Positions 632 to 24,137 are shown, numbered from the stretch's first letter. The stretch is DNA of 64,000 nt from Mucilaginibacter sp. (GCA_035489035.1 DATHKT010000020.1:24904-88903), one strand, 5' to 3'. Numbers and translations are program-made. The notes: a model not told the origin generated them from the letters alone.

Positions 632-3600
632 TTACCTCGTAATAATAATCTTCTTCTTATAAGCCTTCTGCCCCAATTGTATCTTTAAAACATACGTTCC
701 CGGCGCCAGGTGGTCGACATCAAGCAATGTGCTGAAGTTTCCGGCAGGTAATGCTTGTGCTGCTGAATAGCTTGTTTGCCCGGCGCTGTTTATTAATGAT
801 ATATTTAATGCTGTAGCTGTTTTAGCGGCAAAAACAACATTTAGCTGGTCGTTGGCCGGTACGGGGAACACGGCCAGGCCTATATCATTATCACCGGGAT
901 TAGCAGCCAGTATCACATATACAAAATTATCGGATTGGGAAACACAGCCATTTGCCAGGCCAATATCTACCCGGTAATTGCCGCTTTGCGCAGGCGAAAA
1001 GGTTTGCCCGGTTGCCCCGCTAATCACATTCCCGTTTAAATACCATTGATTACCTGTAGCAAAATTCGAACTTAAAACAGTGCCATTTTGTGTAATAACC
1101 GGTTTAACAAGCGTTACCGGCTGCTTTACTATCGATGCGCAACCGGGGCTTTTTAAATGGATATCGTATAAATAATAATAAAAATTCTTGTAATAAGCCG
1201 TATCACTCTCTGATGTAGCTGTATTCCCTGTGATACTGAACACATCACCTATTTTAAACGGGTAGCCACTTACGCCCCCATTGTTGCGATAAATAGTGGC
1301 GGTATTATCAAAGGAGGCGCTGATGGTGTAATTCCCGGCAGCGGGCAATTGTAAATTGAGGTTATAAACCTGTCCCTGGTCGGCCGGGTCATCGGCCTGC
1401 GCACCGGGTTGCGGGTTGGTACGGGTGGCAGTTGCATTAATGGTAGTGGTGGATACGATCTCGCCGCTATCATCTGATACGCTGAAAGTGATCTTACCCG
1501 GATTGCCAATATATAACCTGGCACTTTCAATAATTACAGGTATGCGGGTAAACACATTGATGGCCGGTGTAAACTGGTTATAACCACCGGCGTTGAATAA
1601 ATTCTTTGTTGCCGGGCCAACCGATCCGCTAAAATCATTAAGCCCTGCAAAGTAGGTATTATTTACAGGCGCCTGGGTAGTAGTTGCAGCGGAGCCATAG
1701 GCGATAGGGATAACATCTGTACTGTTCTGATACCAAAGCAATTCCCCATCACCTGTACCGGTTAACAAATAGGAATTGGTGCTGTTACAATAATTGGCAG
1801 CAAGGTCGGTCGCCGCAGGCGGATTACTAACTACAACTGTTTTCGTTACCTGGTTATTACCGGGTATGGGGTCTCCGGCCAGGCTTGTGGATGCCGCTAT
1901 GGTATAAGTTGCCCCGGCAGTAATATTAAAAGTAGCGGTAAAGGTAAAATCTTCGGTTGCTGATGGCGCAAGCGTACCGGTGTAAACCTGGTTGAATGTA
2001 GTCACCGTGTTATCGGCGGCAGTGATGGTCACATTTACAGGTATATTGCTGATGGTCGCGCCTCCGAAATTTTTAAGGGTTACGGTAACGGGGGTTGCCC
2101 CCGAGCAGTTGCCACCTTCTGCAGGATTGACAATAGCGATCACCCCTGCATCAATACTTGTTTGTGTAAATTGCACCCGGTAATCCTGTGTTTCGCCTTT
2201 AGCGTAAGTTCCGCAGGCATTAATGGTTGAAGCATCTGTTGTCTCAACCAATACCACGCGCATCAAACTAAAATTGCCCGGTATAACGGATGGCGGAACG
2301 GTTATATTGGTGGTATAAGTGCCCGTAGTGCTTATCGTCCCGGTAGTGGCTACCAGTTCATCCGTTCCAAAAGCTCCATCGCCATTCCAGTCAATAAACA
2401 CCTTGGCTATTTTATTAAAATTGGCTCCGCAGGTGCCCAATGTCAGGCTTAAAGGATAAGTTTTGCTTTGCTCCAGTTGCACTGTCAGGTTGGTATAATC
2501 CGAATAAGTGGTACAACCAGCAGCAGGTGTATTATTTAAATTCGACAGGGTAACATTATTAACGCGCGAGTCGGCGCTGGATAGCGGGCTCGATGCGCAA
2601 TAAGTTGTACCGCCAATGCCGGTCACAATAATTGAATATGCCTGCGGGCCTTGTTTCAATATACCCTTATGCGAAACGGTGATAGTATATGCTTTACCCG
2701 GAGTGGCATTGGCTATATAAACCTGTTCCACATTATCCCGGATATTATCTCCTTTTGTAGCGGCAGCACCTGGATTAGCCGGGTCCAATACCCATGGGGT
2801 AAAGGTAGTGGTGCCATCACTGACCCTGATATCCAGGTCATTTACTAATTTGGGTGTGCGGCTATTGATCGTTCCATCGGTTGTTATGGTACCTTCGGGA
2901 TCGGTCCATGATATAGTTGCCACCAGGGCGCCGTTACCCGATGCCACTACATTATAGTTTTGTTGTTTCCCCTGTGCTAATGAAACTTCCCGTATCAGGC
3001 TTTTTACACTATTATCCGTAATTGCCTGGGCGGCTTTTTTCATATCCAGCAGGCCCCAGCCGTAAATATAATCCGGGCCAACGTTACCTGCATCAAACGC
3101 AGTATGACAGGCCAGCCCCTTCAGCGTTGCTGCCCGCATAAAGTTTCCTGCATTTTTTTCTGCATAATACTCCTGCAACAGGTATAATGAGCCTGTTATA
3201 TTAGGCGTTGCCTGTGAAGTACCCGAAAAGGTGATATAACTGGTAGGGCTGCTGCTGCCTGCAGATAACACATTCAATCCGTTGCCAACCAGGTCGGGCT
3301 TGATACGGCCGTCATCAGTAGGCCCCCAGCTGCTGAAAAAGGTAGTAGCGATGCTTTGTGAATTGGTCGGCCCATTGGGCAGCGGGTTTATAGCGCCTAT
3401 GGTTAATATGTTTTTAGCATTAGCAGTAGAGCTGATACAGTCGTAACTGTTATTGCTGCTTATGCCGGCCGGCCTCGGGCCTTTATTAATAAAGGTTTGA
3501 TCGCTGGCGCTTCTGTAACCATAGTAGGTTTCACCAACAGCGGGCCCGGTGCTGCCCCTGCTATTGCCCGCCGCTTCTACAATCAGGTAATACGGCGCGT

Positions 3601-4366
3601 TAAAGGCTATCTTGTCCCATGCCTGGGCCCTGTCTGAATAAAACCCAAAAGTATAATCAACCGTATCGCCCGGTATTCCAAACCATTCCCAGTGATTGTT
3701 CCCTTCATTGAAATTCCAGCCTGCTTCATCGCCATAAGAGTGATTTGAAAGCAGCAGGTTTGAAGCAGCCGCGCTCATTTCGGCCACATCATTATTAAAA
3801 TCATAGGATAATAAGGTGCCCGCGTTAAAAGCCATCCCTTTTGCAGGAGCATACACCCCTTTTGCAAGCAAGGTGCCGCTTACGTGCGTAGCATGGTCAA
3901 TTACGAAAGAAGTATCTTTCAGTGTGATGGTTTTCCCGGCAAACTCCTGGTGGGCCTTATAAACCCAGCCCCCATCCCATATAGCCAGCTTATTATTTAA
4001 AAATGTACTTGATCCGGATAGATTTAATCCTAATGAACCACCCGGCTGTACAGTAACTGTATTAGTGGTAGCGGCAGATGTTGTGTTGTTATCAGTAATG
4101 AGGTATACCGGGAACCCCAGTTTGTTGATACCCTGCAAGGATATGATCCCACCGTTCTTAGTTTTTCTGCTGATCAGCCATCCCCGGCTTTTAGCCAGTG
4201 CCAGTGCCTGTTGCCTTCCCTTAATATATAAGTCATTTGATTTGGCCGACAGAGCATCCAGCTCCTTCTTATTAGCGGCAGATGCAGGCACTTGCTGACC
4301 AAATGCACCTACGCCAAAAAACAACAATAAAAATCCTGTAAGTAATGCCGCGTAGTGTTTTCTCAT
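632..4366 (-). CDS. T9SS-secreted S8 (subtilisin-like) serine peptidase with GEVED and Ig-like domains and a type A C-terminal sorting domain
   Basis: Signal peptide; catalytic motifs IWDGG, DHATHVSGT and SGTSQAT; oxyanion-region AAGN; GEVED-like segment (VFIDWNGDG...GETQDY); CTD VFPVPA...LAPGTYVLKI...KKIII. Confidence 0.9.
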   Translation of the reverse strand: MRKHYAALLTGFLLLFFGVGAFGQQVPASAANKKELDALSAKSNDLYIKGRQQALALAKSRGWLISRKTKNGGIISLQGINKLGFPVYLITDNNTTSAATTNTVTVQPGGSLGLNLSGSSTFLNNKLAIWDGGWVYKAHQEFAGKTITLKDTSFVIDHATHVSGTLLAKGVYAPAKGMAFNAGTLLSYDFNNDVAEMSAAASNLLLSNHSYGDEAGWNFNEGNNHWEWFGIPGDTVDYTFGFYSDRAQAWDKIAFNAPYYLIVEAAGNSRGSTGPAVGETYYGYRSASDQTFINKGPRPAGISSNNSYDCISSTANAKNILTIGAINPLPNGPTNSQSIATTFFSSWGPTDDGRIKPDLVGNGLNVLSAGSSSPTSYITFSGTSQATPNITGSLYLLQEYYAEKNAGNFMRAATLKGLACHTAFDAGNVGPDYIYGWGLLDMKKAAQAITDNSVKSLIREVSLAQGKQQNYNVVASGNGALVATISWTDPEGTITTDGTINSRTPKLVNDLDIRVSDGTTTFTPWVLDPANPGAAATKGDNIRDNVEQVYIANATPGKAYTITVSHKGILKQGPQAYSIIVTGIGGTTYCASSPLSSADSRVNNVTLSNLNNTPAAGCTTYSDYTNLTVQLEQSKTYPLSLTLGTCGANFNKIAKVFIDWNGDGAFGTDELVATTGTISTTGTYTTNITVPPSVIPGNFSLMRVVLVETTDASTINACGTYAKGETQDYRVQFTQTSIDAGVIAIVNPAEGGNCSGATPVTVTLKNFGGATISNIPVNVTITAADNTVTTFNQVYTGTLAPSATEDFTFTATFNITAGATYTIAASTSLAGDPIPGNNQVTKTVVVSNPPAATDLAANYCNSTNSYLLTGTGDGELLWYQNSTDVIPIAYGSAATTTQAPVNNTYFAGLNDFSGSVGPATKNLFNAGGYNQFTPAINVFTRIPVIIESARLYIGNPGKITFSVSDDSGEIVSTTTINATATRTNPQPGAQADDPADQGQVYNLNLQLPAAGNYTISASFDNTATIYRNNGGVSGYPFKIGDVFSITGNTATSESDTAYYKNFYYYLYDIHLKSPGCASIVKQPVTLVKPVITQNGTVLSSNFATGNQWYLNGNVISGATGQTFSPAQSGNYRVDIGLANGCVSQSDNFVYVILAANPGDNDIGLAVFPVPANDQLNVVFAAKTATALNISLINSAGQTSYSAAQALPAGNFSTLLDVDHLAPGTYVLKIQLGQKAYKKKIIITR

Positions 4367-4651: not shown

Positions 4652-4677
4652 TAACATTGAGGTTTAAGAATATAAAT

Positions 4678-4896
4678 ATGAAATTGAAGGCAGGCTTAGT
4701 GGTATTTGTATTGTTATTGATCAGCATGGTAAACGCCCACGCCCAGGGCCTGCCTTGCGGTGGTGATGACCCGGATGCTGTTTGCCCGCTTGATACTTGG
4801 GTAATAGTTTTGGTTGTTGCCGCATCTATGTTTGCCGCATTCCGCTTATACAGCCGCCAAACATCTGCGCTGCAGGGTACTCCTCAATCAAGATAA
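4678..4896 (+). CDS. 72-aa secreted micro-protein with a PEP-CTERM/PID-CTERM-like C-terminal sorting signal
   Basis: Signal peptide MKLKAGLVVFVLLLISMVNAHA, then QGLPCGGDDPDAVC, motif PLD, a hydrophobic helix TWVIVLVVAASMFAAF and basic residues. Start moved from 4630 to ATG 4678 because of the -7 box and the signal peptide. Confidence 0.75.
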   Translation: MKLKAGLVVFVLLLISMVNAHAQGLPCGGDDPDAVCPLDTWVIVLVVAASMFAAFRLYSRQTSALQGTPQSR

Positions 4897-5195: not shown

Positions 5196-8100
5196 TTGAA
5201 GAAACTTCTATTATTTGGCTTGATTGTTTTATCTGCCTCATTGTTAACTAAAAATGCGAAAGCGGCAACTTATCAATGGTGGGGAGGAACGGGTACGTGG
5301 AATGTGTCGGGCAACTGGTTAAATATGAGCACCGGCTTTTTTAGTGGTTATCCCGGCAGCGGCGTTGGCGATGTGGCTTATTTTAATTCTGTTTTTACCA
5401 ATAACGTTACCTTATCGGCCAATTTACCCAATGCTATTATTCAAGTACAGGCGCAAGCTTATTCAGCCTGTAAAATTACCATCAATAGCGGCATAACCCT
5501 TAATGTAAGCAACGGACTGGCAATCACCGGGACCTATGGAGGCTCCTATGACGGGATCACCTTTGCGGGCCTGGGCTCCGCAGTGATCGGTGGCGCTTCA
5601 GCATTTACATATTATGCAACGCTTACTATTGGCGCTTCAAATACGGTTACATTCCCTGCTGGTTCAAGTATATCCATGGCAAATAGCTATTGTGGCATTA
5701 CCAATAACGGCACACTCAAATTTACAGGCACATTAGCATCAGGTGTTACTGTAACGTTTGCAGATTATGGTACCCTGGCTAACACAGGTACGATGACGGC
5801 AACATATACCACTATTACATCGGCTAATATTAATCCCACCGTATCCAACACCAACTCTTTTACCTTAACATCATCCACCATTCAATTGGGAGGGCAAAGT
5901 GGCGTTCTTACCAATTCTGGTACATTAAATGCCACATCATCAACATTTGCGCTTTCGGCAAATAATACTGCCATTAATAATACAAAAACCTTTACTGCTA
6001 CATTATGTCCTATTAACTTAACCGGGCAGGCGGCAGCCATTAACAATACTACCGCAACAGGTAGTTTTTTAGTTAATGCTTGTCCCATTGTCCTTTCCAC
6101 TCAAAATCAATGTAATATTACTAATGGCGCCAGTGCAACATTCCTGGCTTCCGGCGGGTCGTCTATTTCCATTTCAAGTTACCAGGGATATATTATAAAC
6201 AACGGAAATTTTTACTCCGGCACATCTAATTCTGCATGTCCCATTACTTTAAGCTCGCAAGGCTCATATATAACTAACTCGGGTACATTTTATGTCGGGT
6301 CTACCTCGGGTATCAATCTTACGGGTTACCAGGGGCTTGTTACCAATAACCCTGCTGGTTTTTTCATTTTTCAATCGGATACTTATGGCTCAGCCTACGT
6401 TGGTGCTATCCCGACTGCTGTACCGGCCAGTGCCAGCGGCCAGTTTGTTGGCACGTTTCAAATTCAGCGCTATATCAGCGGCGGCAGTGCTGCTTACCGT
6501 GGTTATCGCCTGTTTTCATCACCTGTTTATGCAAGTACCGATGCAAGCAGCAACCACATCTACAGTCTTAATTATGTAAAGGCATCAGCGTTGGTAACCG
6601 GCAGCGCGAGTGGTGGTTTTGATAAAACAGGTAATCCAAGCCTTTACCTCAATCGCGAAAACATTGCAGTTTCAAACGCGACTTTTGTATCCGGAAATTT
6701 CAGGGGCGTCAGCAGTATTCTAAGTGCCCCCACCTACAGTTTTAATGGGGAAGCATCTACTTACAGCATACCTGTGGGCAATGGCTTTCTTTTCTTCTTC
6801 AGGGGCGATCGTACAACCAATTTAGCTAATAAATATACCCCCGGCACCAGTGCCGAGAGCGTGATCATGACAGCCAGCGGAACCTTAAATACCATGCAGG
6901 TGATTGTACATCCGTGGTATACGCCCGCTTCTGCAAACCTGATGTATACCACTACAGCTGGCAATACCACCGTTAGAGGCTATAATATGGTAGGAAATCC
7001 TTATGCCAGCTCTATAGACTGGGAAACCTTTCAAACCACAACATCAACAACCGGCATTTATGCACCGGTCGTGAGCACCGTAACCACTGTTGGCCCAACT
7101 ATCTATTTATTAAATCCGCAAAATCATAATTATGGTGCGTACACCAAGGGGGGCGCTGGCCTTGGCACCAATGGCGCAACCAACATTATAGCCAGCGGGC
7201 AGGGGTTTTTCGTTTTGGCCGCAAATGCATCGGCACAGCTGATCTTTAATGAGTCGGCAAAAACTACCGCACAAGCCACAGGGCCCGCTTTGTTTATGGG
7301 AATGCCTGCCGACCAGGTTGCCTTCAATCCGTATATCCGATTACAAATGGCAAAGGATTCGGCTGACTCAGATGATCTGCTGCTGCGCTTTAACAGTAGT
7401 GCCCAAGTTAATTATGTTGAGAACGAAGATGCGCCTTATAAAAAAGGATTTGGCAAAGTAAGCTTGTCAAGCAGATCAAACGATAGTGTTGACCTGGCGA
7501 TAAATGCTCTCCCGTTACCCAAACAAAACGCTGAAACTGTTGGGCTAACAGTTGATGCCACTGCGGATGACATTTATCAGTTAAGCCTGAAAGATATTAA
7601 CCAGGTTCCGCAGCTTTTTGATGTATGGCTGATGGATGCCTATAAAAAGGATTCGTTAGATATGCGCCATAACTCCACTTACAGCTTCAACGTTCTTAAA
7701 GGTGATTCGTCAAGCTTTGGATCGAAGCGCTTTAGTTTGATCATCCGGCAAAACCCGGCTTACGCCTTCCGCCTGTTAAATTTTACCGCTCAAAAAATAA
7801 ACAATACCACGCAGGTACAAGTAGCCTGGAAAACCGAGAATGAACAAAACTACACCAACTTCACTGTTGAGCGCAGCATCGATAATGGTGCCACCTATGA
7901 AGTATTGGGCGGTGTATCTTCAAGCGGGCTCGGCTCATACAATTTCCTGGATAAAAGCCCGGTAATTGGCCAAAACCTTTACCGCCTGAAACAAGAGGAT
8001 ATTAACAATACCATTACCTACTCCAAAGTAGTACAGGTGCTTTATTCTGATAAGAGCAACAACCTGGCTGGCAATATCAGTATATATCCTAATCCTGTAA

Positions 8101-8321
8101 ACAGCACACTTAATTTAGCCATAGCTTCTCAGTCGGCGGAGAGCGCAAGCTATAATATTATAATCACCAGCAGTTCAGGCGCGGTAGTAAAACAAGCTAT
8201 TACTAACGAGCCTAATTGGCAGGGTGCGGTCAATAATTTGCTTCCGGGTACTTACCTTGTACAAGTGATAAATAATAAAGATAAAAGCCTTGTCGGAAAC
8301 AGCAAGTTTATCAAGATTTAG
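5196..8321 (+). CDS. Large T9SS type A cargo protein, array paralogue A1 (adhesin-like)
   Basis: TTG start and signal peptide; Thr/Asn/Gly-rich beta-helix-like N-terminus; shared core QRY..GG..YRGYRL.SSPV / GNPY.SSIDW / SGQGFFV; Ig-like domain; CTD IYPNP...KFIKI. Confidence 0.9.
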   Translation: MKKLLLFGLIVLSASLLTKNAKAATYQWWGGTGTWNVSGNWLNMSTGFFSGYPGSGVGDVAYFNSVFTNNVTLSANLPNAIIQVQAQAYSACKITINSGITLNVSNGLAITGTYGGSYDGITFAGLGSAVIGGASAFTYYATLTIGASNTVTFPAGSSISMANSYCGITNNGTLKFTGTLASGVTVTFADYGTLANTGTMTATYTTITSANINPTVSNTNSFTLTSSTIQLGGQSGVLTNSGTLNATSSTFALSANNTAINNTKTFTATLCPINLTGQAAAINNTTATGSFLVNACPIVLSTQNQCNITNGASATFLASGGSSISISSYQGYIINNGNFYSGTSNSACPITLSSQGSYITNSGTFYVGSTSGINLTGYQGLVTNNPAGFFIFQSDTYGSAYVGAIPTAVPASASGQFVGTFQIQRYISGGSAAYRGYRLFSSPVYASTDASSNHIYSLNYVKASALVTGSASGGFDKTGNPSLYLNRENIAVSNATFVSGNFRGVSSILSAPTYSFNGEASTYSIPVGNGFLFFFRGDRTTNLANKYTPGTSAESVIMTASGTLNTMQVIVHPWYTPASANLMYTTTAGNTTVRGYNMVGNPYASSIDWETFQTTTSTTGIYAPVVSTVTTVGPTIYLLNPQNHNYGAYTKGGAGLGTNGATNIIASGQGFFVLAANASAQLIFNESAKTTAQATGPALFMGMPADQVAFNPYIRLQMAKDSADSDDLLLRFNSSAQVNYVENEDAPYKKGFGKVSLSSRSNDSVDLAINALPLPKQNAETVGLTVDATADDIYQLSLKDINQVPQLFDVWLMDAYKKDSLDMRHNSTYSFNVLKGDSSSFGSKRFSLIIRQNPAYAFRLLNFTAQKINNTTQVQVAWKTENEQNYTNFTVERSIDNGATYEVLGGVSSSGLGSYNFLDKSPVIGQNLYRLKQEDINNTITYSKVVQVLYSDKSNNLAGNISIYPNPVNSTLNLAIASQSAESASYNIIITSSSGAVVKQAITNEPNWQGAVNNLLPGTYLVQVINNKDKSLVGNSKFIKI

Positions 8322-8515
8322 GTGTGAATGCCTGCAATTATGGGGAGAATATTACCCGTTAAAAATGGGCAGGTATTGATTTAAAAAGCTGCTTTAAAAA
8401 AAGCCCCCAATTAAGTGCCCTAATAGCCTGTATACGCACTTTTTTATCGTGATTGGATAATTAATATTATTGGCAGTTAATTTGTTATATCGAGGCAGGA
8501 AACAACCTCCGCCTT

Positions 8516-11500
8516 TTGAAACAATTTATACTTAAAATAATAATACTATGCGCGCTGCCCATTTTCTTCATGGGAGAAGTGCGTGCAGCCAATACTTACG
8601 ACTGGACAGGAAATACTTCAACCAATTGGGCCGCCGCAAGTAACTGGAAGAAGAATAATGGTACATCAACCACTTATCCTGGCCAAAGCGGCAATACCGA
8701 TATTGTACGCATCGGCGTAGTTACCACCATTCCTACGTTTTACACCTACCCTGTTTTAGCAAACAATATTACTATAGCTTCATTAACCTTCGGCAACGAT
8801 AATTCGCCTGTTGCAAGTTTTGGCGGAGAAATGCAATTGACTGTTAATGCTACATTAACCATAACCGGCACCCTTTTGCAAATGCATAGCGCTACAGGCG
8901 GCCCTGCAAATTCGGGTGGCACGGGTTCAACAGTTGATGACTCTGATTTTGAAAAATTCACATTTGATGAAATAACAACGCTGCTTGGTACCGGCACAAT
9001 TAACTGCGCCACATTCCAGGTGGGTGATAATACTACAGGAGTAAATAACAGCACCGTTAACGCTACGCTGGTAGATATTGGAAATGACTACACCACATCA
9101 ACATTAACCATAAACGTAAGCGGTGATTGTGTCCTGAACTCGGCAAGTAAAAACAATGGCACAGTGGTAACCCGCAGCAGCCGTTCGCTTATTTCGCTCC
9201 AGGCCGGAACCTTAAATATTACCGGTAAACTGAACTTAACCAATAACAATGTCTTTAAATTTGTATTGCAGCAATACGAGTCCCTTTGTCTTTTTTCGAT
9301 GGACCTGTATGCCAATGCCAACAGCCCGGTATTAAACCTTAAAGGGGCTACCCCGGTTTTGGTCGGTACCTCACAATATGCCGCTAACCCTGTCGACTTT
9401 TATAATGTCAACGCCACCGGCGGTACGGGGACTGCAACCGTTAATTATTTAGGAACCAACCAGCGGATATATACTTATAACGGATCGTTAGATCCCAACG
9501 AATGGATAGACGTGGTTCCTAATGATATCTATCAAAATCTTACCCTGTCGAATTCAGGAACAAAAACAGTGGATGCGGGTTTGCTTTCTGTAGCCAACAA
9601 TTTTACCGTATCCGGTACTGCAACAGTAAACATGACTTCCAATAACCCGACTGTAATTATTGGTAATGATCCGGCGGCAAGTGGAGGTGGTTATTATACA
9701 ATCGGTGGCACCACCGTTAACCTCGGCACGGGTACTGTAAATATCACCGGCTCTACTTTCAGTAATTTGGGGACTACCAGCATTGGTACCGGGTTGATCA
9801 CTTTCGATTCACCCTCCCCTACAACGCTTACCACAACAGCCGCGCTTGCCTTTAGTAAAGTTGCCTTTAGCGGCGGCGGTACAAAAACCCTGTCGAGCGG
9901 AAGCTTCTCGGTATTAAACACCGGCGTATTAACCATGAGCGGCGCTACAACGCTACAGGCAGGGGGGCATTTAACGTTAAATTCCAATTCCACCTCTTCA
10001 GCAACCGTAGCCGCTATACCTTCAGATTGCGCCATTAACGGCAATGTTAGCGTTCAGCGTTATGTAACCGGCGGTATTGGCTACCGGGGTTACCGGTTAT
10101 TATCTTCTCCTGTTAATACGGGCACCAATGATGCCAATGGTAATAAACAGTTTAGCTTTAACTACATAACTAATTCAACCTATACAACCGGGCTTAATGG
10201 CGTTGCCGGGGGCTTTACCCAGGGAGGCAACCCAACAATTTATTTATGGCGCGAAAACTTGATCCCCTCAAATGCATCCTTTACAAGCGGCAATTTCAGG
10301 GGCGTTGGTGATCTGAGCGCATCACCCAATTACCTGGTAATAGGCGATGGCACATTCAATATGCCGGTAGGTAATGGGTTTTTAATGTTTTTCAGGGGCG
10401 GGATAGGCACGCCAAACCCCTTTCAAACCACATCTACTCCTCTTGCTGCCACATTCACTACCACCGGGATATTAAACCAGGGATCAATAAGTGTTAAAGA
10501 CTGGTATACACCAGCTTCCCCAAGCCTTGGTTTCACTACTATTTCGGGCACAATCGCGGTAGAAGGTTTCAACCTGGTGGGTAACCCTTATGCCAGCTCA
10601 ATCGATTGGAGTACTTACAGCACCACCAACGCCGCAGCCGGGGTATATGCCGCTGGTGGCAATGTGGGGCCATTTGCTTATATATTGCACACTACAGGGC
10701 AGGGTAATGGCAATTATGGCACTTATGATGCCGTCCATAATGTAATTCAAAACGGGGGTTCAAAAACTATTCCAAGCGGCATGGGCTTCTTTGTAATAGC
10801 ATCAAGCAATACCGCATCAACATTGGTATTTAACGAAGCTGCAAAAACTAATACACAAGTTAGCCCGCTAAATTTATACATGGGCAAACCTGTAGCAACA
10901 AATACACTCTCTCTACTGCGCCTCCAATTGACACAGGATACCATGAGTACAGATGAAACATTGGTGCTTTTTGATGATAACGCAAAAGCTGGCTACGATT
11001 ATAAGGAAGATGCTCTTTATAAAACAGGAACCGGTAAGGTAAGCTTATCCAGCACATCAAGCGATCAAATAGCCCTGGCTATTAACGATCTTCCTTTAAG
11101 CTTAAAAGGCCAAATCATTCCATTAAAATTAAGCGCAACCATTGATGGCACTTATACTTTAAAGATGACCGAAATGAAAGGGATTCCGCAGTTATACGAT
11201 GTATGGTTAGTGGATGCTTTCAAAAAGGATTCGGTAAACATGCGTACCACTTCAACCTACAGCTTTACCATAGCCAAAGGCGACACCAACACTTTCGGTT
11301 CAACCCGCTTTAAACTGGCACTGCGCCAAAACCCTGCTGAAATGTATAAGCTACTAAGCTTCACTGCCGATAAGGTTGATAACAAGGCACAGGTAGAAGT
11401 AACCTGGAAAGTTGCCAATGAGCAAAACTACACCCACTTTACCCTGGAGCGCAGCAACAATAACAGCAAAACTTTTGAGGTGATAGGCGGCTTAACTTCA

Positions 11501-11902
11501 AGCGGTCAATATAACTACAGCCTTTTGGATAAAAACCCGGAGAATGGTATCAACCTCTACCGCCTGAAACAGGAAGACTTCAATAGCAAGATCAGCTACT
11601 CAGATGTAGTGGAGGTACAATATGCTGATAAGAGTAATAACCTAACCGGCAGTGGCCACCTGAGTGTTTATCCCAATCCTGCGGTGAACACTATTAACTT
11701 AATCATTGATCCCAAAAAACAGGTAACAACCTATAGCATCAGGGTCACCAACAGTGCAGGTACAATAGTAAAACAAGCTACCACCACGCAACCCAACTGG
11801 CAGGATAATGTAAGCCGCCTGCTTACCGGAACCTACCTGATCCAGGTAGTAAATGGTAAGGACAACAGCCTTGTTGGGCAAACAAAATTTATCAAATTAT
11901 AA
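8516..11902 (+). CDS. Large T9SS type A cargo protein, array paralogue A2
   Basis: TTG start, signal peptide, YDWTG...W...NW motif, same core and CTD (VYPNP...KFIKL). Confidence 0.9.
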   Translation: MKQFILKIIILCALPIFFMGEVRAANTYDWTGNTSTNWAAASNWKKNNGTSTTYPGQSGNTDIVRIGVVTTIPTFYTYPVLANNITIASLTFGNDNSPVASFGGEMQLTVNATLTITGTLLQMHSATGGPANSGGTGSTVDDSDFEKFTFDEITTLLGTGTINCATFQVGDNTTGVNNSTVNATLVDIGNDYTTSTLTINVSGDCVLNSASKNNGTVVTRSSRSLISLQAGTLNITGKLNLTNNNVFKFVLQQYESLCLFSMDLYANANSPVLNLKGATPVLVGTSQYAANPVDFYNVNATGGTGTATVNYLGTNQRIYTYNGSLDPNEWIDVVPNDIYQNLTLSNSGTKTVDAGLLSVANNFTVSGTATVNMTSNNPTVIIGNDPAASGGGYYTIGGTTVNLGTGTVNITGSTFSNLGTTSIGTGLITFDSPSPTTLTTTAALAFSKVAFSGGGTKTLSSGSFSVLNTGVLTMSGATTLQAGGHLTLNSNSTSSATVAAIPSDCAINGNVSVQRYVTGGIGYRGYRLLSSPVNTGTNDANGNKQFSFNYITNSTYTTGLNGVAGGFTQGGNPTIYLWRENLIPSNASFTSGNFRGVGDLSASPNYLVIGDGTFNMPVGNGFLMFFRGGIGTPNPFQTTSTPLAATFTTTGILNQGSISVKDWYTPASPSLGFTTISGTIAVEGFNLVGNPYASSIDWSTYSTTNAAAGVYAAGGNVGPFAYILHTTGQGNGNYGTYDAVHNVIQNGGSKTIPSGMGFFVIASSNTASTLVFNEAAKTNTQVSPLNLYMGKPVATNTLSLLRLQLTQDTMSTDETLVLFDDNAKAGYDYKEDALYKTGTGKVSLSSTSSDQIALAINDLPLSLKGQIIPLKLSATIDGTYTLKMTEMKGIPQLYDVWLVDAFKKDSVNMRTTSTYSFTIAKGDTNTFGSTRFKLALRQNPAEMYKLLSFTADKVDNKAQVEVTWKVANEQNYTHFTLERSNNNSKTFEVIGGLTSSGQYNYSLLDKNPENGINLYRLKQEDFNSKISYSDVVEVQYADKSNNLTGSGHLSVYPNPAVNTINLIIDPKKQVTTYSIRVTNSAGTIVKQATTTQPNWQDNVSRLLTGTYLIQVVNGKDNSLVGQTKFIKL

Positions 11903-12448
11903 CCCCAAAAAGCTCCTGATTTTGAGGTTTCAGAAGCCGTTATTGAGACAAAATCATCCGGCGTATTAACCCATAATTAATTTATTGCCGCTATTTTCGG
12001 CTATTAATTACAGGCCAGCCCCATGGGCCGTTCATACTATTCATAATCGAAGATGTCGGATCAACACTTTAAATAGAAGCCTTAAAGCTCTGATAATACA
12101 TTACTTAAATTTAATACACTTAAGTGTTCCCAATTGGGCGTTGATAATAATATTAAAAGCCGTATAAAAAATGTTCTTTTTGCTTGATAAAGTGCATTTT
12201 ATCCCTTAAAATTGTATAAGGAATCATATTTACCTGGTGTAATGAAAAACAAAAAAGTTGTATTCCAACTCCTTGATCTTCATTATAAACGGATGCATTT
12301 CTTTGCTAAATATTTTTTATTATTTTAATAAAAACAATAAGTAATAAAACAAGTTGTACAACAACTATGCGTGGTGTTGATTAGTGTACTTTAATTATTA
12401 AGGTTGGTGCTGATTAACCAAGAGTTATTGACCTTAAACCTTTGAAAC

Positions 12449-15400
12449 GTGAAACAGCTTTTACTTAAAATATGTATTGTAAGCGCCCTGCTTATGATCT
12501 CTGCGCGAAGTGCTTTTGCGCAACTCACTTATGACTGGACCGGAACAACCAATACAGCATGGACTATCGCCAGTAACTGGAGTGTTGGCGGCGTAGCACA
12601 AACCGGAACCAATTATCCCGGCGGCGCAGGCCGGACAACTGATATTGTCCAGGTTGGTGTTGACGCAAGTATTACCGCGGCTCAATTTCCTGCTTTATCA
12701 TCATCTTTAACTGTAGCTTCAGTAACTTACGGATACAACAATAAACCAGTTAATACCAAGGCCAATATGGCATTAACAATTAACGGTGCCGGGGTGACGC
12801 TAACCGTTACAGGTGCGTTTTTACAAATGCACAGTCCCAATGGCGGCAACGCCAATAGTGGCGGAACGGGACCGGGTGTCGATTATACCGCAAGATTTAC
12901 CGCGATTACAACATCGATAATAGGAAATGGCACGCTTCATTGCGGATCACTTATAGTAGGCGATCCCACTACCATCCCCCAAAATTTATATACCAACGAT
13001 TATACACAGCTGCTTATTGGCAGTAATACTGGTGATAATCCTATAAATATAATAGTGGATAATGATTTTATACAAAACTCCGTAAGCACCCGGCTGGGTG
13101 GAGACCCAACCGTTATTGCCAGGAACATCCACACTGAAGTTTTTTTTTACCAGGGGACTTTAACTATAGGCGGCACACTTAAATTGGTGAATAATAAAGC
13201 GGATGGCAACGATTTTGCTTACTCACTGGATCAGTATTCTCCTTCAAATCATTTTACGATCCAACTTTTTGATGTAGTCAATGATGCCATTTTAAACCTG
13301 GGGGGAGCCCCATCTGTACAAATTGGTGATATAACAAGTCCAGACTATGCATTGACCAACAACTACATCGATTTTTATGAAATAATAAATACACCGCACA
13401 AAACAAGCACGGTAAATTATTCAGGCCCGGGCAACCAGGAGGTATTTGCTGATGGTGTAACAGGTATTGACAATACTACAGCGGTGTATCAGAACCTTGG
13501 TTTTGCGGGTGGTGGAATAAAAACTGTAGATGCAGGTTCACTTTCTATTGATGGTAATTTTAACCTGGCCCTCACCGGTACAGGGTCGGTCGACTTAAAA
13601 ACCAATAACCCCGTAGTTAATATCGCAGGGACTTTTACATCCAACAGCACAAACGATATACTTAACCAGGGTACGGCAGCTATCAACATCACAGGCCTTG
13701 CAACAAATGCCGGCGATATTGATCAATTGAGTTCAGGCGCTTCGGGCACTATAGCTTTCAATGGAGGATTTACCAATACGGGTAATTTAAATCAAACCAA
13801 CGGAGATATTACGGTTACCGGATCTGTATCAAACACAGGAAACCTGAACCTTGGTTCGGCCAATTTCAGTGTTTCAGGAGATTACAGCAATAGTGGTAAT
13901 TATACTCAAACTACAGGTACCACTATATTTAATGGAACAGGTGCTCAGGATTTAGCCGGTGGAGCAGGTGCAGGTACTGCTTTCCATAACGTAACATTTA
14001 GTGGTGGCTCAAACAAAACATTGCAAAGCGGTAATTTTTCTGTAGCAAGCAGCGCTGTGATGACACTGAGCGGCACCAATACCCTGGTGACTGCCGGTAC
14101 AGGCAATTTGACGCTTATTTCGGATGCGGGTGGTTCTGCAACAATTGCCACTCTCACCAATGGCTGCCAGGTAAACGGGAGCAACATAACTGTGCAGCGG
14201 TACATAGCAGCGCTTCGTGGTTACCGTTTAATGTCTTCCCCTATATATGCGGCTACAGTAGGATCAAACAATGTTTACAGCATAAATTATTTACAGGCGA
14301 ATACGGTATTGACGGGTATGGGTGGTGGTTTTGATAAGGTAAGCAGCCCAACACTTTATTTATACCGTGAGGATGTGCCTGTTTCAAACTCCTCATTCTT
14401 AACCGGCAACTACAGGGGTATACATGATATAACCACTCCGCCCGATTATACGGTTGAAGGTGATGCCGCTTCCTATAACATTCCAACCGGTAACGGATAT
14501 CTATTCTTTTTCAGGGGATATAGTGATAAAAGCCCGGCTTCTATCGCTGCGGAAACTTTAACAACTTATGTTGCCACAAGCGCCACGGTAGCGGCTACCG
14601 GCTCGTTAAATCAAGGACCAATAATTTTCAGGGATTGGTATAATGCCGGGTCAGATAATTTAGGCAAATCAAATGTCGATCCGGCTGCCTACGGTTTTAA
14701 TTTAACCGGCAACCCGTATCCAAGCTCTATTGATTGGGAAACTTTTAATACCACCACCTCCGGAAGCGGAATTTATACGCAGGGCCTGGTTAGTACAGTG
14801 TATGAGCTTAACCCGGTAACCAAAAACTACGACATTTACCAGGTTGGAGGAAATTCTACCAATAATGGCAGCCGGTATATTGCAACCGGGCAAGGTTTTT
14901 TTGTACTTGCTGATTTTTCATCAGCGCTGGCGCCACAGCTTACATTTAATGAGTCGGCAAAAGCTACTGCACAACCAGCAATCTTATTGATGGGCAAACC
15001 TGCTGACCTGGTTACAAACAACCAATTTATGCGCCTGGAGCTTGGAAAAGATTCGATAGACAAGGATAATGTCCTGATCCGCTTTAACAGCAATGCCAAA
15101 GCCGGATATAATATCAAAGAGGATGCACCTTATAGAACCGGGTTGGGGGCTGTAAGTTTGGCCAGTATTTCGAGCGATAAAGTTATCCTGGGTATCAACC
15201 AGCTTCCATTAGCCTCCATGGGGCAAACCATTGCTTTGAAAATAGGCGCCACTACTGATGGTAGCTACATCTTAAACATGAAAGAGCTTGTCGGCGTACC
15301 ACAATTATATGATGTATGGCTGATGGATGCTTTCAAAAAGGATTCGGTTAATATGCGCACCGATAAACTATACAATTTTACCATTGCCAAAAGTGATACC

Positions 15401-16015
15401 AACACATTTGGTTCAAATCGTTTTAAACTGGTTGTGCGCCAAAACCCAGCCCAGATGTGTCAGCTGATCAGCTTTAATGCCAATAAGGTTACTAATAAAG
15501 CACAGGTTGAAGTAATTTGGAAAGCTGTTAACGAACAAAACTATACCCACTATACCGTAGAACGCAGCACCGATAACGGAAAGGTGTTTGAAGTGGTGGG
15601 TGGTTTAACCTCAAGCGGACAGGGTACCTATAGCCTGCTGGATAAAAACCCGGCAAACGGAATTAATAAATACCGCCTGAAACAGGAAGATTACAACAGC
15701 GTCATTACTTACTCAAACGTGGTAACTATCCAATACTCAGACAAAAGCAATAATCTTACAGGGAGCGGCCACCTGAGCGTTTACCCTAACCCGGCGGTAG
15801 GTAATATTAATTTAGCCATTGATCCGAAAAAACAGGTGACAGCTTATAGCATCAGGATCACCAATAGCGCGGGTACAATAGTAAAACAAGCGATCACTAC
15901 GCTACCAAACTGGCAGGATAACGTAAGCAAATTGCTCACGGGGACTTACCTGATACAGGTGGTTAACAATAAAGATAACAGCCTGGTTGGGCAAACCAAA
16001 TTTGTGAAACTGTAG
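12449..16015 (+). CDS. Large T9SS type A cargo protein, array paralogue A3
   Basis: GTG start, signal peptide ending AFA-Q, same core and CTD (VYPNP...KFVKL). Confidence 0.9.
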   Translation: MKQLLLKICIVSALLMISARSAFAQLTYDWTGTTNTAWTIASNWSVGGVAQTGTNYPGGAGRTTDIVQVGVDASITAAQFPALSSSLTVASVTYGYNNKPVNTKANMALTINGAGVTLTVTGAFLQMHSPNGGNANSGGTGPGVDYTARFTAITTSIIGNGTLHCGSLIVGDPTTIPQNLYTNDYTQLLIGSNTGDNPINIIVDNDFIQNSVSTRLGGDPTVIARNIHTEVFFYQGTLTIGGTLKLVNNKADGNDFAYSLDQYSPSNHFTIQLFDVVNDAILNLGGAPSVQIGDITSPDYALTNNYIDFYEIINTPHKTSTVNYSGPGNQEVFADGVTGIDNTTAVYQNLGFAGGGIKTVDAGSLSIDGNFNLALTGTGSVDLKTNNPVVNIAGTFTSNSTNDILNQGTAAINITGLATNAGDIDQLSSGASGTIAFNGGFTNTGNLNQTNGDITVTGSVSNTGNLNLGSANFSVSGDYSNSGNYTQTTGTTIFNGTGAQDLAGGAGAGTAFHNVTFSGGSNKTLQSGNFSVASSAVMTLSGTNTLVTAGTGNLTLISDAGGSATIATLTNGCQVNGSNITVQRYIAALRGYRLMSSPIYAATVGSNNVYSINYLQANTVLTGMGGGFDKVSSPTLYLYREDVPVSNSSFLTGNYRGIHDITTPPDYTVEGDAASYNIPTGNGYLFFFRGYSDKSPASIAAETLTTYVATSATVAATGSLNQGPIIFRDWYNAGSDNLGKSNVDPAAYGFNLTGNPYPSSIDWETFNTTTSGSGIYTQGLVSTVYELNPVTKNYDIYQVGGNSTNNGSRYIATGQGFFVLADFSSALAPQLTFNESAKATAQPAILLMGKPADLVTNNQFMRLELGKDSIDKDNVLIRFNSNAKAGYNIKEDAPYRTGLGAVSLASISSDKVILGINQLPLASMGQTIALKIGATTDGSYILNMKELVGVPQLYDVWLMDAFKKDSVNMRTDKLYNFTIAKSDTNTFGSNRFKLVVRQNPAQMCQLISFNANKVTNKAQVEVIWKAVNEQNYTHYTVERSTDNGKVFEVVGGLTSSGQGTYSLLDKNPANGINKYRLKQEDYNSVITYSNVVTIQYSDKSNNLTGSGHLSVYPNPAVGNINLAIDPKKQVTAYSIRITNSAGTIVKQAITTLPNWQDNVSKLLTGTYLIQVVNNKDNSLVGQTKFVKL

Positions 16016-16459
16016 TTCTCAGCCGTCTTTAAAACTCATTATAAGTGCAAAAAACTTCAGGCTTTGCTAACGCGGCCATTGTTTCCATGCTTTATGCTGA
16101 ATTAATACAGCCTGAATTCTTCTTAAAAGCAAGGGAGTGATTTTTGATCACATTCCCGCCAGCAGCGCGTTTTACGCCGAAAAAACCCTTAACAAGCTAA
16201 AATAACTCAGGAAACATGATTGTTACACAATCCCCGGCATTTAACTTGTGGACAAATAATTAATCATAAGGAATTTTATTATTCAATAGTTAAATTATAT
16301 GGTGGTTTTTAAAGATACGTCATCAATTTGGCCGGTTAAATTAATTTATGATTAATTAAAAAATAGTATTAAATATGAAACATCGTACAAAATCTCTCCG
16401 TAAGAATATGTCATAATAACACAATGGCTCATCGGCAATTTTGACTAATAACCTTATTC

Positions 16460-19810: not shown

Positions 19811-20220
19811 TCAAAGGCGGCTTTAGGCATATACTTTTATTTCCGAACGACTATTTCTAAAAAGAGTTTTTCATAACGTCCAAAACACAGGTTTAATATG
19901 ATCTTGCCCGCACGATTCGGCCAAATATCATCAAATGTTCTAACTATTTTTCAACATATTAACATTTGTCAATAATACATGTGTAAAAACACGGTTGATT
20001 ACTTTTTGCTTATTGGTAAAATACAGTTTATAAATATTAATCTATAATATAATATTAACTAATAATATATACAAATTGACCATTTATTAATATAAACGAA
20101 ATATTTAATTGGTATATAAGCATTTATTGGTTACAAAAATTCACCTCCGGTAGTTTATGTCATAAAAAAAATACCTTAAAAATCATTAGTTTCGGGTCCA
20201 GTTACTTAAACTATGGTATT

Positions 20221-23895: not shown

Positions 23896-24137
23896 TTTTC
23901 AGCAATTAAAATCAGTCCTTCACTACCTTAAAACAAGGATTGGGTGGCATGATGCATGTTTAAACAATCAACAGAAATGCCTCATAATCAGCCTCCTATT
24001 TATATCTACGTAAAGTGCTTTATATCAGCACAAAACACCAAAAATTAGCTATAAAAAAGCCGTAATTTAATTCGCTTTTTTTTGGAACCTATTTAAAAAA
24101 CATTCGTATAAGTTTTCAAGTATCTTATTAATTTAAA

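What the first reader, a model, noticed from the sequence alone, without database searches (positions are those of the whole stretch)
4678..4896. Micro-protein heading the array: a 14-residue disulfide-loop peptide on a PEP-CTERM-like anchor
Seen: signal peptide (aa 1-22), ectodomain QGLPCGGDDPDAVC, then PLD, a TM helix and basic residues. It has its own TAnnTTTG box and sits immediately upstream of, and co-oriented with, the six giant T9SS paralogues. Established: motif-TM-basic tails (PEP-CTERM class, with PID-type variants in Bacteroidota) are cleaved by exosortase-family enzymes, and N-terminal Gln is cyclised to pyroglutamate in Bacteroidota. Inference: almost nothing remains after processing except a pGlu-capped, Cys27-Cys36-bridged acidic 14-mer. 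It could be a dedicated anchor or assembly partner for the array proteins, or a released signal peptide. No exosortase gene is in this window. Micro-protein plus array (possibly plus the divergent protease) is my best candidate for an undescribed system.
Basis: partly seen in the sequence, partly recalled or inferred. Interest (0 to 1): 0.75.

Follow-up and report, generated by a model that had tools for sequence, protein, structure and literature searches.

The report
Tiny exosortase substrate beside T9SS adhesins
This 72-codon gene is real and encodes little more than an export signal, a 14-residue acidic disulfide-loop peptide and a membrane sorting tail; it is a diverged, so far unrecognised member of the database-listed PID-CTERM class of exosortase substrates, and it is inherited together with giant type IX-secreted surface proteins, which links two protein-sorting systems not connected in any paper I could find.

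Summary
Window 4678-4896 (+) encodes a 72-aa protein: signal peptide ending AHA|Q, ectodomain QGLPCGGDDPDAVC, invariant PLDTW, a TM helix and a basic tail.

**The gene is real.** It has 63 close homologues and 252 cluster representatives, all tiny, and dN/dS is well below 1.

**Family.** The curated PID-CTERM model misses it. Profile searches still join it without a break to canonical PID-CTERM micro-proteins (hhalign 97.4%).

**Exosortase link.** Across 221 Bacteroidia genomes, 101 of 102 genomes with such a micro-protein also carry an exosortase. In 53 genomes the micro-gene directly precedes the exosortase gene on the same strand (10 typed: XrtX by best match, 7 over cut-off). This genome's only exosortases are two XrtY copies in polysaccharide loci on other contigs.

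**T9SS link.** In 301 genomes of the same family, the micro-gene co-occurs with the conserved core of the array proteins: 92 have both, 9 and 8 have one only, 192 have neither. It nearly always lies next to such a T9SS gene, usually behind it.

**Verdict.** It is most likely an XrtY substrate whose peptide works together with the T9SS cargo. Cleavage, the acceptor and the function are all inferred. This is a new variant of a catalogued but unstudied system. The T9SS coupling does not appear in the literature I could search.

The parts
4652..4659 (+). Promoter-like -7 box conserved among orthologues (TAACATTG here and in one orthologue; TAnnTTTG in the other five)
Evidence: Alignment of upstream regions of 7 orthologous loci, invariant TA...TTG columns.
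4678..4743 (+). Signal peptide, aa 1-22 (MKLK...VNAHA), type I signal peptidase site A|Q
   Evidence: Translation; hydropathy; A22 and Q23 invariant in 42 homologues.
4744..4785 (+). Ectodomain QGLPCGGDDPDAVC, aa 23-36: acidic 14-mer with a Cys pair
   Evidence: Mean identity 0.81 within the genus-level alignment; two Cys before the PxD motif in 42/42 (A1) and 40/44 (A2) members.
4786..4800 (+). PLDTW, aa 37-41: sorting motif (P-x-D invariant across the whole family)
   Evidence: C36 P37 L38 D39 W41 invariant in A1; P37 and D39 the only invariant residues in A2; aligns with PIDGG of canonical PID-CTERM proteins.
4801..4842 (+). Transmembrane helix, about aa 40-55
   Evidence: Hydropathy peak 2.0-2.75 over aa 37-53.
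4843..4896 (+). Basic cytoplasmic tail RLYSRQ... (aa 56-72) and stop codon
   Evidence: relatives read RLYRRQ/K; poorly conserved beyond the basic cluster (identity 0.26).
5196..27410 (+). Six co-oriented paralogues A1-A6 (5196-8321, 8516-11902, 12449-16015, 16460-19810, 20221-23895, 24138-27410): variable head + conserved ~425-aa 'A-core' + T9SS type A C-terminal domain
   Evidence: ORFs; Por_Secre_tail / TIGR04183 over cut-off; alignment; A-core co-occurs with the micro-gene 92/9/8/192 in 301 genomes.
632..4366 (-). Divergent S8 subtilase-GEVED-T9SS CTD peptidase, a recurrent but not universal neighbour
   Evidence: Pfam; found beside the micro-gene in 18 of 43 and 2 of 20 mapped loci, and in L101.

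Best explanation
The ORF is a real gene for a minimal exosortase substrate. It is a diverged 'PLDTW' member of the PID-CTERM class.

**Shown**
- The architecture is signal peptide, 14-residue acidic two-Cys peptide, invariant P-x-D, TM helix and basic tail.
- It is homologous to canonical PID-CTERM micro-proteins.
- It almost never occurs without an exosortase-family gene.
- In many lineages it sits directly upstream of XrtX, or next to XrtY.
- It co-occurs with, and lies adjacent to, T9SS cargo that carries the A-core module.

**Inferred mechanism**
1. The precursor is exported by Sec and cut after AHA. Gln23 is cyclised.
2. The peptide is held at the periplasmic face of the inner membrane by the C-terminal helix.
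3. One of the genome's two XrtY enzymes, both encoded in polysaccharide-type loci on other contigs, recognises PLD + TM + basic tail and cuts there.
4. Like other sortase-type enzymes, XrtY passes the peptide's new C-terminus to a non-protein acceptor, probably a glycan or lipid made by those loci.
5. The peptide conjugate then acts with the co-encoded T9SS surface proteins, most likely in their surface attachment or assembly.

In this lineage the ancestral operon (T9SS giant, then micro-protein, then exosortase) has broken up. The micro-gene stayed with the giants, not with the enzyme.
For: **Real gene.**

**Sorting motif.** P37 and D39 are the only invariant residues in 44 members. The same tail is carried by longer passengers of 100-135 aa in other genera, so it behaves as a module.

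**Homology to PID-CTERM.**
- 13 of 44 members of A2 hit NF046080.
- 8 of 10 class-level members score over its cut-off.
- hhalign of A1 against the canonical set gives 97.4%, E = 1.3e-11.

**Enzyme.**
- The own genome has exactly two exosortase-family genes. Both are XrtY, at 235 and 239 bits against a cut-off of 160. They sit beside a glycosyltransferase, a WcaF-like acetyltransferase and an FkbM methyltransferase.
- No other ORF in the genome has a PxD-TM-basic tail or any recurrent tail motif.

**Co-occurrence with exosortase.**
- Family level, 301 genomes: 95 have both, 6 micro only, 30 exosortase only, 170 neither.
- Class level, 221 genomes: 101 / 1 / 46 / 73 in the same order.
- In the genus, all 21 micro-positive genomes have XrtY and none of the 11 others does.

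**Adjacency to exosortase.**
- The micro-gene abuts the exosortase gene on the same strand in 53 of the class-level genomes and in 7 loci within the family.
- These enzymes type as XrtX (7/10 over cut-off), XrtX-like or XrtY-like.
- A true XrtY lies beside micro plus giant in L075.

**T9SS link.**
- 40 of 43 loci in the first set have an A-core/CTD giant directly adjacent and co-oriented. Tandem giant-micro units occur in L045 and L053.
- Micro against A-core is 92 / 9 / 8 / 192.
- Class-wide, the gene upstream of the micro-gene is an 819-1213-aa T9SS type A CTD protein in 6 of 6 tested, 5 over cut-off.
- Independent metagenome contigs show the same synteny.
Against: - The curated PID-CTERM model does not hit this protein at all. 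It lacks the GG after the motif and the Gly/Ala-rich helix of canonical members.
- No exosortase lies within 64 kb of the gene.
- Co-occurrence is not corrected for phylogeny. On a NadE tree of the genus the joint trait needs only about 3 changes, and one origin is not excluded.
- XrtY occurs without any detectable micro-gene or A-core in about 20 genomes, mostly of one genus. XrtY therefore has other roles or substrates.
- One 98%-complete genome (G042) has micro and A-core but no detectable exosortase.
- The peptide has no Lys and a probably blocked N-terminus, so it is not an obvious acceptor for PorU-type attachment.
- There is no expression, cleavage or localisation evidence.
- Short profiles made of a signal peptide plus a TM helix gave false positives on CoxII-like proteins.
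Confidence: 0.72

Rival explanations
1. The protein is not cleaved. It stays as a bitopic inner-membrane micro-protein (17 residues outside, a short basic tail inside). It acts as an accessory factor for its giant neighbours, for example by holding or escorting them in the periplasm before T9SS export, or by sensing envelope state. On this reading the exosortase association reflects shared ancestry of an accessory gene set.
For: - Tight adjacency to the giants, while the exosortase is remote in this genome.
- The ectodomain is more conserved than a mere spacer would need to be.
- At least one fairly complete genome has micro plus A-core without a detectable exosortase.
- Genus-level co-occurrence comes down to few evolutionary events.
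Against: - The only residues invariant across the whole family are the P-x-D at the membrane face. That is the hallmark of a sortase-type recognition motif rather than a binding surface.
- 101 of 102 class-level genomes with the micro-gene have an exosortase, and 53 have it as the next gene.
- The same tail is carried by unrelated passengers.
Confidence: 0.13
2. It is the precursor of a released peptide, either a signal or a RiPP-like product. The 14-mer would be liberated, possibly matured by the neighbouring S8 protease, and in some relatives oxidised by a MauE/DoxX-like membrane protein. It would then act outside the cell.
For: - The peptide is a conserved two-Cys acidic 14-mer.
- An S8 peptidase is a frequent neighbour.
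- A 368-376-aa polytopic membrane protein with a weak MauE hit sits between protease and micro-gene in L006, L007 and L101.
Against: - The S8 peptidase and the MauE-like gene are absent from most loci, and the MauE-like gene is absent from this genome.
- No RiPP maturase or exporter is conserved beside it.
- In many other families the ectodomain is a simple Pro-rich stretch with a short CWPPPC-type loop (PPPPGGPPCWPPPC) with little information content.
- The linkage to exosortase and T9SS cargo would be left unexplained.
Confidence: 0.06
3. It is a chance ORF or an untranslated leader of the first array gene.
For: - It is small.
- No family model hits it.
- There is no expression evidence.
Against: - Hundreds of homologues keep the frame, the length and the motif.
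- Selection is strongly purifying.
- In most genomes the gene lies behind, not ahead of, the giant gene.
Confidence: 0.01

Closest known systems
PID-CTERM sorting domain with exosortase X and the XrtX-associated membrane protein (NCBIfam NF046080, NF046081, NF046082)
   Same: - The overall plan is the same: signal peptide, short Pro/Asp/Cys-rich peptide, P-[ILV]-D, TM helix, basic cluster.
- The size is equally tiny.
- Profile-profile homology is clear.
- The gene depends on an exosortase of the XrtX/XrtY clade.
   Different: - It scores nothing on the curated model.
- It reads PLDTW instead of PIDGG, and its helix is not Gly/Ala-rich.
- The genome has XrtY, not XrtX, and no XrtX-type operon.
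- The gene is detached from the enzyme and placed ahead of an array of T9SS genes.
Exosortase Y (NCBIfam NF046083), encoded in polysaccharide loci
   Same: Two full-score copies are the only exosortases in this genome. In the genus, XrtY and the micro-gene are always present or absent together.
   Different: I know of no published or curated substrate for XrtY (own knowledge; no paper in the library holds the term). XrtY also occurs without this micro-protein in about 20 genomes.
PEP-CTERM / exosortase A (EpsH) system of Proteobacteria
   Same: It uses the same logic: motif, TM helix and basic tail, with a polytopic membrane cysteine protease and an association with exopolysaccharide loci. Cleavage near the motif with transfer to an unidentified compound is proposed (PMC7468200).
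   Different: The motif is different (PEP) and no HMM match was found. Substrates there are many per genome and usually sizeable proteins. There is no T9SS.
PGF-CTERM / archaeosortase A and GlyGly-CTERM / rhombosortase
   Same: These are the sortase-like systems where C-terminal cleavage with attachment to a lipid-type anchor has been shown or deduced. For rhombosortase this is summarised in PMC7468200; for ArtA it rests on my own knowledge. They are the best models for what XrtY may do to the 14-mer.
   Different: The enzymes and motifs are unrelated or only distantly related, and the substrates are full-size proteins.
XrtF of Flavobacterium johnsoniae
   Same: It is a Bacteroidota exosortase. 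Deleting xrtF or its partner gene impairs surface colonisation and biofilm formation, and its substrates are stated to be unknown (PMC10936215).
   Different: The enzymes here score below the XrtF cut-off (52 bits against 90). Whether XrtF uses a similar micro-substrate was not tested here.
PorU sortase and glycolipid anchoring of T9SS type A cargo
   Same: The array proteins carry type A C-terminal domains. Such cargo is cleaved and joined to an amino-acid-modified linking sugar of a glycolipid in Porphyromonas and Tannerella (PMC7468200).
   Different: No role for an exosortase product in T9SS anchoring has been reported. The link proposed here is inference from gene linkage.

Membership tests
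PID-CTERM (NCBIfam NF046080) | Score at or above the curated cut-off (26 bits) on the family model | tested here: not met
   No hit for P0001 even at E<=10 or E<=0.1. By contrast, 13/44 relatives in A2 hit it, and 8/10 class-level relatives score over cut-off.
PID-CTERM (NCBIfam NF046080) | C-terminal tripartite signal: P-[ILV]-D motif, TM helix, basic cluster at the protein's end | tested here: met
   PLD at aa 37-39, hydrophobic aa 40-55, then RLYSRQ. P and D are invariant in 44 members.
PID-CTERM (NCBIfam NF046080) | Homology to bona fide members | tested here: met
   hhalign of A1 against 19 canonical members: probability 97.4%, E = 1.3e-11 over 64 columns. Caveat: signal-peptide and TM composition inflate such scores.
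PID-CTERM (NCBIfam NF046080) | Gly-Gly after the motif and a Gly/Ala-rich helix, as in the canonical consensus PIDGGxxLLxAAGxAYGxKK | tested here: not met
   Here the sequence is PLDTWVIVLVVAASMFAAF.
PID-CTERM (NCBIfam NF046080) | Occurs only in genomes with an exosortase of the XrtX/XrtY clade | tested here: met
   The own genome has 2 XrtY. Family level 95/101 and class level 101/102 micro-positive genomes carry an exosortase.
PID-CTERM (NCBIfam NF046080) | Cleavage at the motif by the exosortase | not testable with these tools
   Needs biochemistry or mass spectrometry.
PEP-CTERM (exosortase A type) | PEP motif and a match to the PEP-CTERM model | tested here: not met
   There is no PEP motif, and no such family appears among NCBIfam hits at E<=10.
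PExPT-CTERM, target of XrtJ (TIGR04200) | Score at or above 40 bits | tested here: not met
   10.1 bits, E = 0.53.
FeoB-associated Cys-rich membrane protein (PF12669) | Score at or above the gathering threshold of 27 bits | tested here: not met
   19.7 bits; the match covers the signal peptide and PCGG only.
Bacteroidota signal peptidase I substrates obeying the Q-rule | Small residue at -1 and Gln at +1 of the cleavage site | tested here: met
   A22 and Q23 are invariant in 42 homologues. The rule itself comes from PMC5837995 and PMC10653852. Cyclisation was not tested.
T9SS type A cargo (the six neighbours) | C-terminal sorting domain over cut-off | tested here: met
   PF18962 at 31.7-37.2 bits (cut-off 27) for the five paralogues scanned; TIGR04183 at 26.9-29 bits (cut-off 23); the sixth paralogue aligns through the same C-terminal region.

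The most novel reading that the evidence does not exclude
Exosortase and T9SS sorting converge on one molecule.

- XrtY would transfer the pGlu-capped, disulfide-looped acidic 14-mer onto a glycan or lipid built by the XrtY-linked polysaccharide loci.
- This peptide-glycoconjugate, once exported to the surface, would be the dedicated dock or covalent anchor for T9SS cargo carrying the A-core module.
- On this reading, each giant gene keeps its own micro-gene because the pair forms a matched cargo-anchor set.
Probability: 0.15. Interest if true: 0.85.

Novelty: new variant of a known kind. Interest (0 to 1): 0.6.

Why it matters
**An open question in exosortase chemistry.** What exosortases attach their substrates to has never been determined for bacteria. 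For Bacteroidota, published work states that the substrates are unknown (PMC10936215). A substrate that is almost nothing but the sorting signal plus a 14-residue, mass-spectrometry-friendly peptide is about the simplest possible handle on that chemistry. In this genome it pairs with one enzyme type (two XrtY copies).

**An informative case of the T9SS link.** The operon has split in this genome. The enzyme sits in polysaccharide loci and the substrate gene stayed with six T9SS surface-protein genes. This argues that the peptide's function is tied to the T9SS cargo rather than to the enzyme's operon.

**A link not in the literature.** A functional link between exosortase processing and type IX secretion is not in the literature I could search. 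If real, it bears on how non-Porphyromonas Bacteroidota fix large adhesins to their surface.

**An annotation gap.** The curated PID-CTERM model misses a whole Mucilaginibacter / Sphingobacteriaceae branch. Its members are currently annotated 'hypothetical protein', or wrongly 'signal peptidase'.

Tried and rejected
- **FeoB-associated Cys-rich protein.** The Pfam hit is below threshold and covers only the signal peptide. Rejected.
- **PExPT-CTERM / XrtJ.** 10 bits against a cut-off of 40. Rejected.
- **XrtF as the enzyme.** The own-genome hits score 52 bits against 90 and are XrtY.
- **Other exosortase substrates in the genome.** A regex search, two HMMs and a motif count over 200 C-terminal TM-basic tails found none.
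- **TAnnTTTG as evidence of a promoter.** The motif is not enriched. Only its conservation among orthologues counts.
- **Terminator or RNA element.** No terminator follows the gene on the + strand. No Rfam match in 4300-5400.
- **Genus-level 21/21 against 0/11 as strong statistics.** The NadE tree shows about 3 changes, so the Fisher values are not probabilities.
- **Co-variation of tail type with enzyme type.** Canonical P[IL]DGG tails also occur in genomes whose best exosortase match is a true XrtY; for some, such as G012 and G015, it is the only one. No claim is made.
- **What the A-core is.**
  - No Pfam hit, and no PDB hit by sequence.
  - The first AF2 model, from 14 sequences, was poor (pLDDT 61).
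  - A 60-sequence alignment gave pLDDT 86.8 and pTM 0.87. Foldseek still found no PDB match (best E = 0.013, TM 0.13).
- **Literature.** No paper holds PID-CTERM, XrtX or XrtY in the biological sense.

Full report
**1. What is there**

Window 4678-4896 (+) is an ORF of 72 codons plus TAA. It translates to MKLKAGLVVFVLLLISMVNAHAQGLPCGGDDPDAVCPLDTWVIVLVVAASMFAAFRLYSRQTSALQGTPQSR. Hydropathy shows an N-terminal signal-like segment and a second hydrophobic segment at about aa 40-55. Between them lies an acidic stretch with net charge -3.

An upstream in-frame ATG at 4630 is listed. Homologues begin at MKLK, and the intervening DNA carries a conserved promoter-like box.

The gene is single-copy in the 5.4-Mb genome. 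Upstream and divergent lies a 1244-aa S8 subtilase with GEVED and T9SS C-terminal domains. Downstream and co-oriented lie six paralogues of 1041-1224 aa. All six have T9SS type A C-terminal domains.

**2. It is a gene**

- A word-indexed search found 63 homologues. Nearly all are 64-85 aa, and those that carry a name come from Mucilaginibacter or Sphingobacteriales assemblies. They are annotated 'hypothetical protein', and once 'signal peptidase'.
- An exhaustive profile search of 1.84 billion cluster representatives found 252 at E<=0.001. All 150 listed are 54-113 aa.
- In 42 aligned homologues A22, Q23, P26, C36, P37, L38, D39, W41, L45 and L57 are invariant.
- Against the nearest orthologues, synonymous sites are saturated (pS 0.66-0.82) while pN is 0.18-0.30. 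Where it can be computed, dN/dS is 0.08-0.2.
- By segment, identity to the window's residues is 0.62 for the signal peptide, 0.81 for the 14-mer, 1.0 for PLDTW, 0.71 for the helix and 0.26 for the tail. The short ectodomain is therefore itself under selection.

**3. What the tail is**

Neither NCBIfam nor Pfam recognises the protein. The best hits are PExPT-CTERM at 10 bits (cut-off 40) and FeoB_associated at 19.7 bits (cut-off 27).

A profile of the homologues finds members in 44 of 301 genomes of the same bacterial family. The more distant of these score over the cut-off of NF046080, the PID-CTERM protein-sorting domain, at 43-45 bits against 26.

In a broad alignment of 44 members from more than ten genera, only P37 and D39 are invariant. 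13 of the 44 hit PID-CTERM. A profile-profile comparison of the window's clade with 19 canonical members gives 97.4% probability and E = 1.3e-11. It aligns the signal peptide, AQ, DPD, P[LI]D and the helix.

The same tail also ends longer proteins of 100-135 aa in other genera, so it behaves as a transferable module. The window's protein is thus a diverged branch of the PID-CTERM class. It reads PLDTW rather than PIDGG and lacks the Gly/Ala-rich helix, which explains why the curated model misses it.

**4. The enzyme**

No exosortase lies in the window. The genome has exactly two exosortase-family genes, on contigs C16 and C45. Both score as exosortase Y (235.6 and 239.1 bits, cut-off 160). The one examined (C16) is flanked by a glycosyltransferase, a WcaF-like acetyltransferase and an FkbM methyltransferase.

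No other ORF in the genome carries a PxD-TM-basic tail, matches a profile of this tail, or shares any recurrent motif before a C-terminal TM-basic segment. If XrtY has a protein substrate of this type here, this is the only candidate.

**5. Co-occurrence with exosortases**

| Set | Both | Micro only | Exosortase only | Neither |
|---|---|---|---|---|
| Family, 301 genomes (broad profile vs TIGR04178) | 95 | 6 | 30 | 170 |
| Class, 221 genomes (about 60 families) | 101 | 1 | 46 | 73 |

- At family level, one 'micro only' case is a false positive on a CoxII-like protein. Four more are 84-95% complete assemblies.
- At class level, the single exception is an 85%-complete assembly.
- The asymmetry is what a substrate-enzyme pair predicts: the micro-gene is almost never without an exosortase, while the exosortase is often without the micro-gene.
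- These tables are not corrected for relatedness. In the window's genus, all 21 micro-positive genomes have XrtY and none of the 11 others does. However, a NadE tree shows that the joint trait needs only about three changes, with 19 positives in one clade. That figure therefore represents few events.

**6. Adjacency to exosortases**

- In 55 of the class-level genomes the micro-gene lies within 600 bp of the exosortase match.
- In 53 of them it is on the same strand and upstream. The median distance is 269 bp to a match that begins about 90 residues into the enzyme, so the genes abut.
- Ten such enzymes were typed. All ten are exosortase X by best match, and seven are over its cut-off.
- Eight of the ten micro-proteins score over the PID-CTERM cut-off.
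- The next gene is the XrtX-associated membrane protein, at 62-63 bits against a cut-off of 75.
- Within the family, seven further loci show micro followed by an XrtX-like or XrtY-like gene. One locus (L075) has a full-score XrtY (229 bits) beside micro plus giant.

**7. The tie to T9SS cargo**

- Of 43 micro-gene loci mapped first, 40 have a homologue of the array proteins directly adjacent and co-oriented. That homologue has the conserved core plus a T9SS C-terminal domain.
- In the window's own clade the micro-gene precedes the array. Elsewhere it follows the giant gene. Two genomes have tandem giant-micro, giant-micro units. Twenty more loci give the same picture.
- A profile of the roughly 425-residue conserved core ('A-core') finds 100 of 301 genomes. 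The table against the micro-gene is 92 both, 9 micro only, 8 core only, 192 neither.
- Class-wide, the gene just upstream of the micro-gene is a protein of about 800-1900 aa in 13 of 18 loci. All six of these that were scanned carry the T9SS type A domain, five over cut-off.
- Metagenome contigs reached through exact protein look-ups show the same synteny.

The ancestral arrangement therefore appears to be T9SS giant, then PID-CTERM micro-protein, then XrtX, then XrtX-associated protein. In Mucilaginibacter the enzyme (XrtY) has moved to polysaccharide loci, and the micro-gene has stayed with the giants.

**8. What the giants are**

- The six paralogues share variable N-terminal parts. One has NHL repeats.
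- All six also share the A-core, a further conserved ~100-residue segment before the CTD, and the CTD.
- Close homologues carry many different N-terminal domains (LamG-type, DUF2341, NHL, He_PIG, Fn3) on the same core.
- The core has no Pfam or PDB relative by sequence.
- With a 60-sequence alignment AlphaFold2 gives a confident all-beta two-part model (pLDDT 86.8, pTM 0.87). Foldseek finds nothing in the PDB (best E = 0.013, TM 0.13).
- The constant core is the part that co-varies with the micro-gene. I therefore infer that it is the part functionally connected to the micro-gene.

**9. Mechanism proposed**

*Shown:* the architecture, the homology, the co-occurrence and the adjacency.

*Established elsewhere:*
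- Bacteroidota signal peptidase I substrates mostly expose Gln, which is cyclised (PMC5837995, PMC10653852).
- Exosortases are proposed to cut near the motif and join the new C-terminus to an unidentified compound (PMC7468200).
- A Bacteroidota exosortase (XrtF) is needed for surface colonisation, and its substrates are unknown (PMC10936215).

*Inferred:*
1. Sec export, then cleavage after AHA.
2. A pGlu cap and a C27-C36 disulfide.
3. Retention by the C-terminal helix.
4. Recognition and cleavage at PLD by XrtY.
5. Transfer of the peptide to a glycan or lipid acceptor.
6. A role of that product in the surface attachment or assembly of A-core T9SS cargo.

I hold the first part (a real gene, PID-CTERM class, exosortase substrate, genetically coupled to T9SS cargo) at about 0.7-0.8. 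I hold the last step (partner or anchor for the cargo) at about 0.3-0.4.

**10. Comparison and novelty**

The PID-CTERM / XrtX / XrtX-associated set and XrtY exist as curated NCBIfam families, so the kind is catalogued. No paper in the searchable library mentions them.

New here:
- A branch of the substrate family that the curated model misses.
- Its pairing with XrtY.
- A split locus in which the substrate gene heads an array of six T9SS genes.

Notes from other windows of this scan describe the same micro-protein / T9SS pairing in other genomes. I read them after my own analysis. They agree, but they are not independent evidence.

**11. Limits**

- There is no expression, processing or localisation evidence.
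- Short profiles built from a signal peptide and a helix can give false hits.
- Co-occurrence statistics ignore phylogeny.
- XrtY exists without the micro-gene in about 20 genomes, mostly of one genus.

Noticed in passing
L006:8701-9831(-), L007:8718-9824(-), L101:8726-9841(-); absent from the window (4367-4677 is only 311 bp): In some close relatives a 368-376-aa polytopic membrane protein sits between the S8 peptidase and the micro-gene. It has a weak MauE hit, a faint BT_3928 hit and a Cys-rich C-terminal part. It is absent from the whole genome of the window. It might oxidise the micro-protein's Cys pair.
   Followed up: partly
Own genome G000:C16:2522-3022 and G000:C45:2522-3022: Two paralogous XrtY genes sit at the same offset from the ends of two contigs. 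The C16 copy sits in a glycosyltransferase / acetyltransferase / methyltransferase neighbourhood. This suggests two duplicated polysaccharide loci or a shared repeat at the contig ends.
   Followed up: partly
window 6462-7757, 10052-11335, 14192-15448, 17945-19237, 22051-23328, 25563-26840: The roughly 425-aa conserved core of the six array proteins is confidently predicted (pLDDT 86.8, pTM 0.87) as an all-beta two-part module. It has no Pfam family and no PDB relative by sequence or fold. In homologues it carries many different N-terminal head domains.
   Followed up: partly
window 16-534 (+) and 632-4366 (-): A 172-aa protein with no Pfam hit and the S8-GEVED-CTD peptidase keep the same order and orientation next to the micro-gene. 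This holds in Mucilaginibacter relatives and metagenome contigs (L006, L007, L008, L040, L041, L060, L101).
   Followed up: partly
Genomes G025, G165, G185, G209 and most of genus g3: XrtY matches lie in open frames of 470-514 aa instead of about 190 aa. In these genomes XrtY may be fused to another domain.
   Followed up: no
Genus g25 of the same family (e.g. G024, G054, G077): About 20 genomes have a full-score XrtY but no detectable micro-gene, and most have no A-core gene. XrtY must have another substrate or role there.
   Followed up: no
window 4897-5195: A 299-bp AT-rich spacer separates the micro-gene from the first array gene. It has a short hairpin (GGGTT-N6-AACCC, 4897-4912) right after the stop codon, no T-run, no + strand TAnnTTTG box and no Rfam match. 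Relatives keep a similar spacer of about 370-530 bp.
   Followed up: partly
L137, L142 (G047:C211, G163:C78): The broad micro-protein profile also hits the N-terminus of CoxII-like proteins (signal peptide + AQ + TM). This is a source of false positives for anyone counting this family with short profiles.
   Followed up: yes
L145-L164 (class-level loci): Many canonical XrtX-linked micro-proteins carry a CWPPPC loop directly before the P[IV]D motif, after a poly-Pro/Gly stretch. This loop is a tighter Cys pair than the C-x8-C loop of the window's protein.
   Followed up: no
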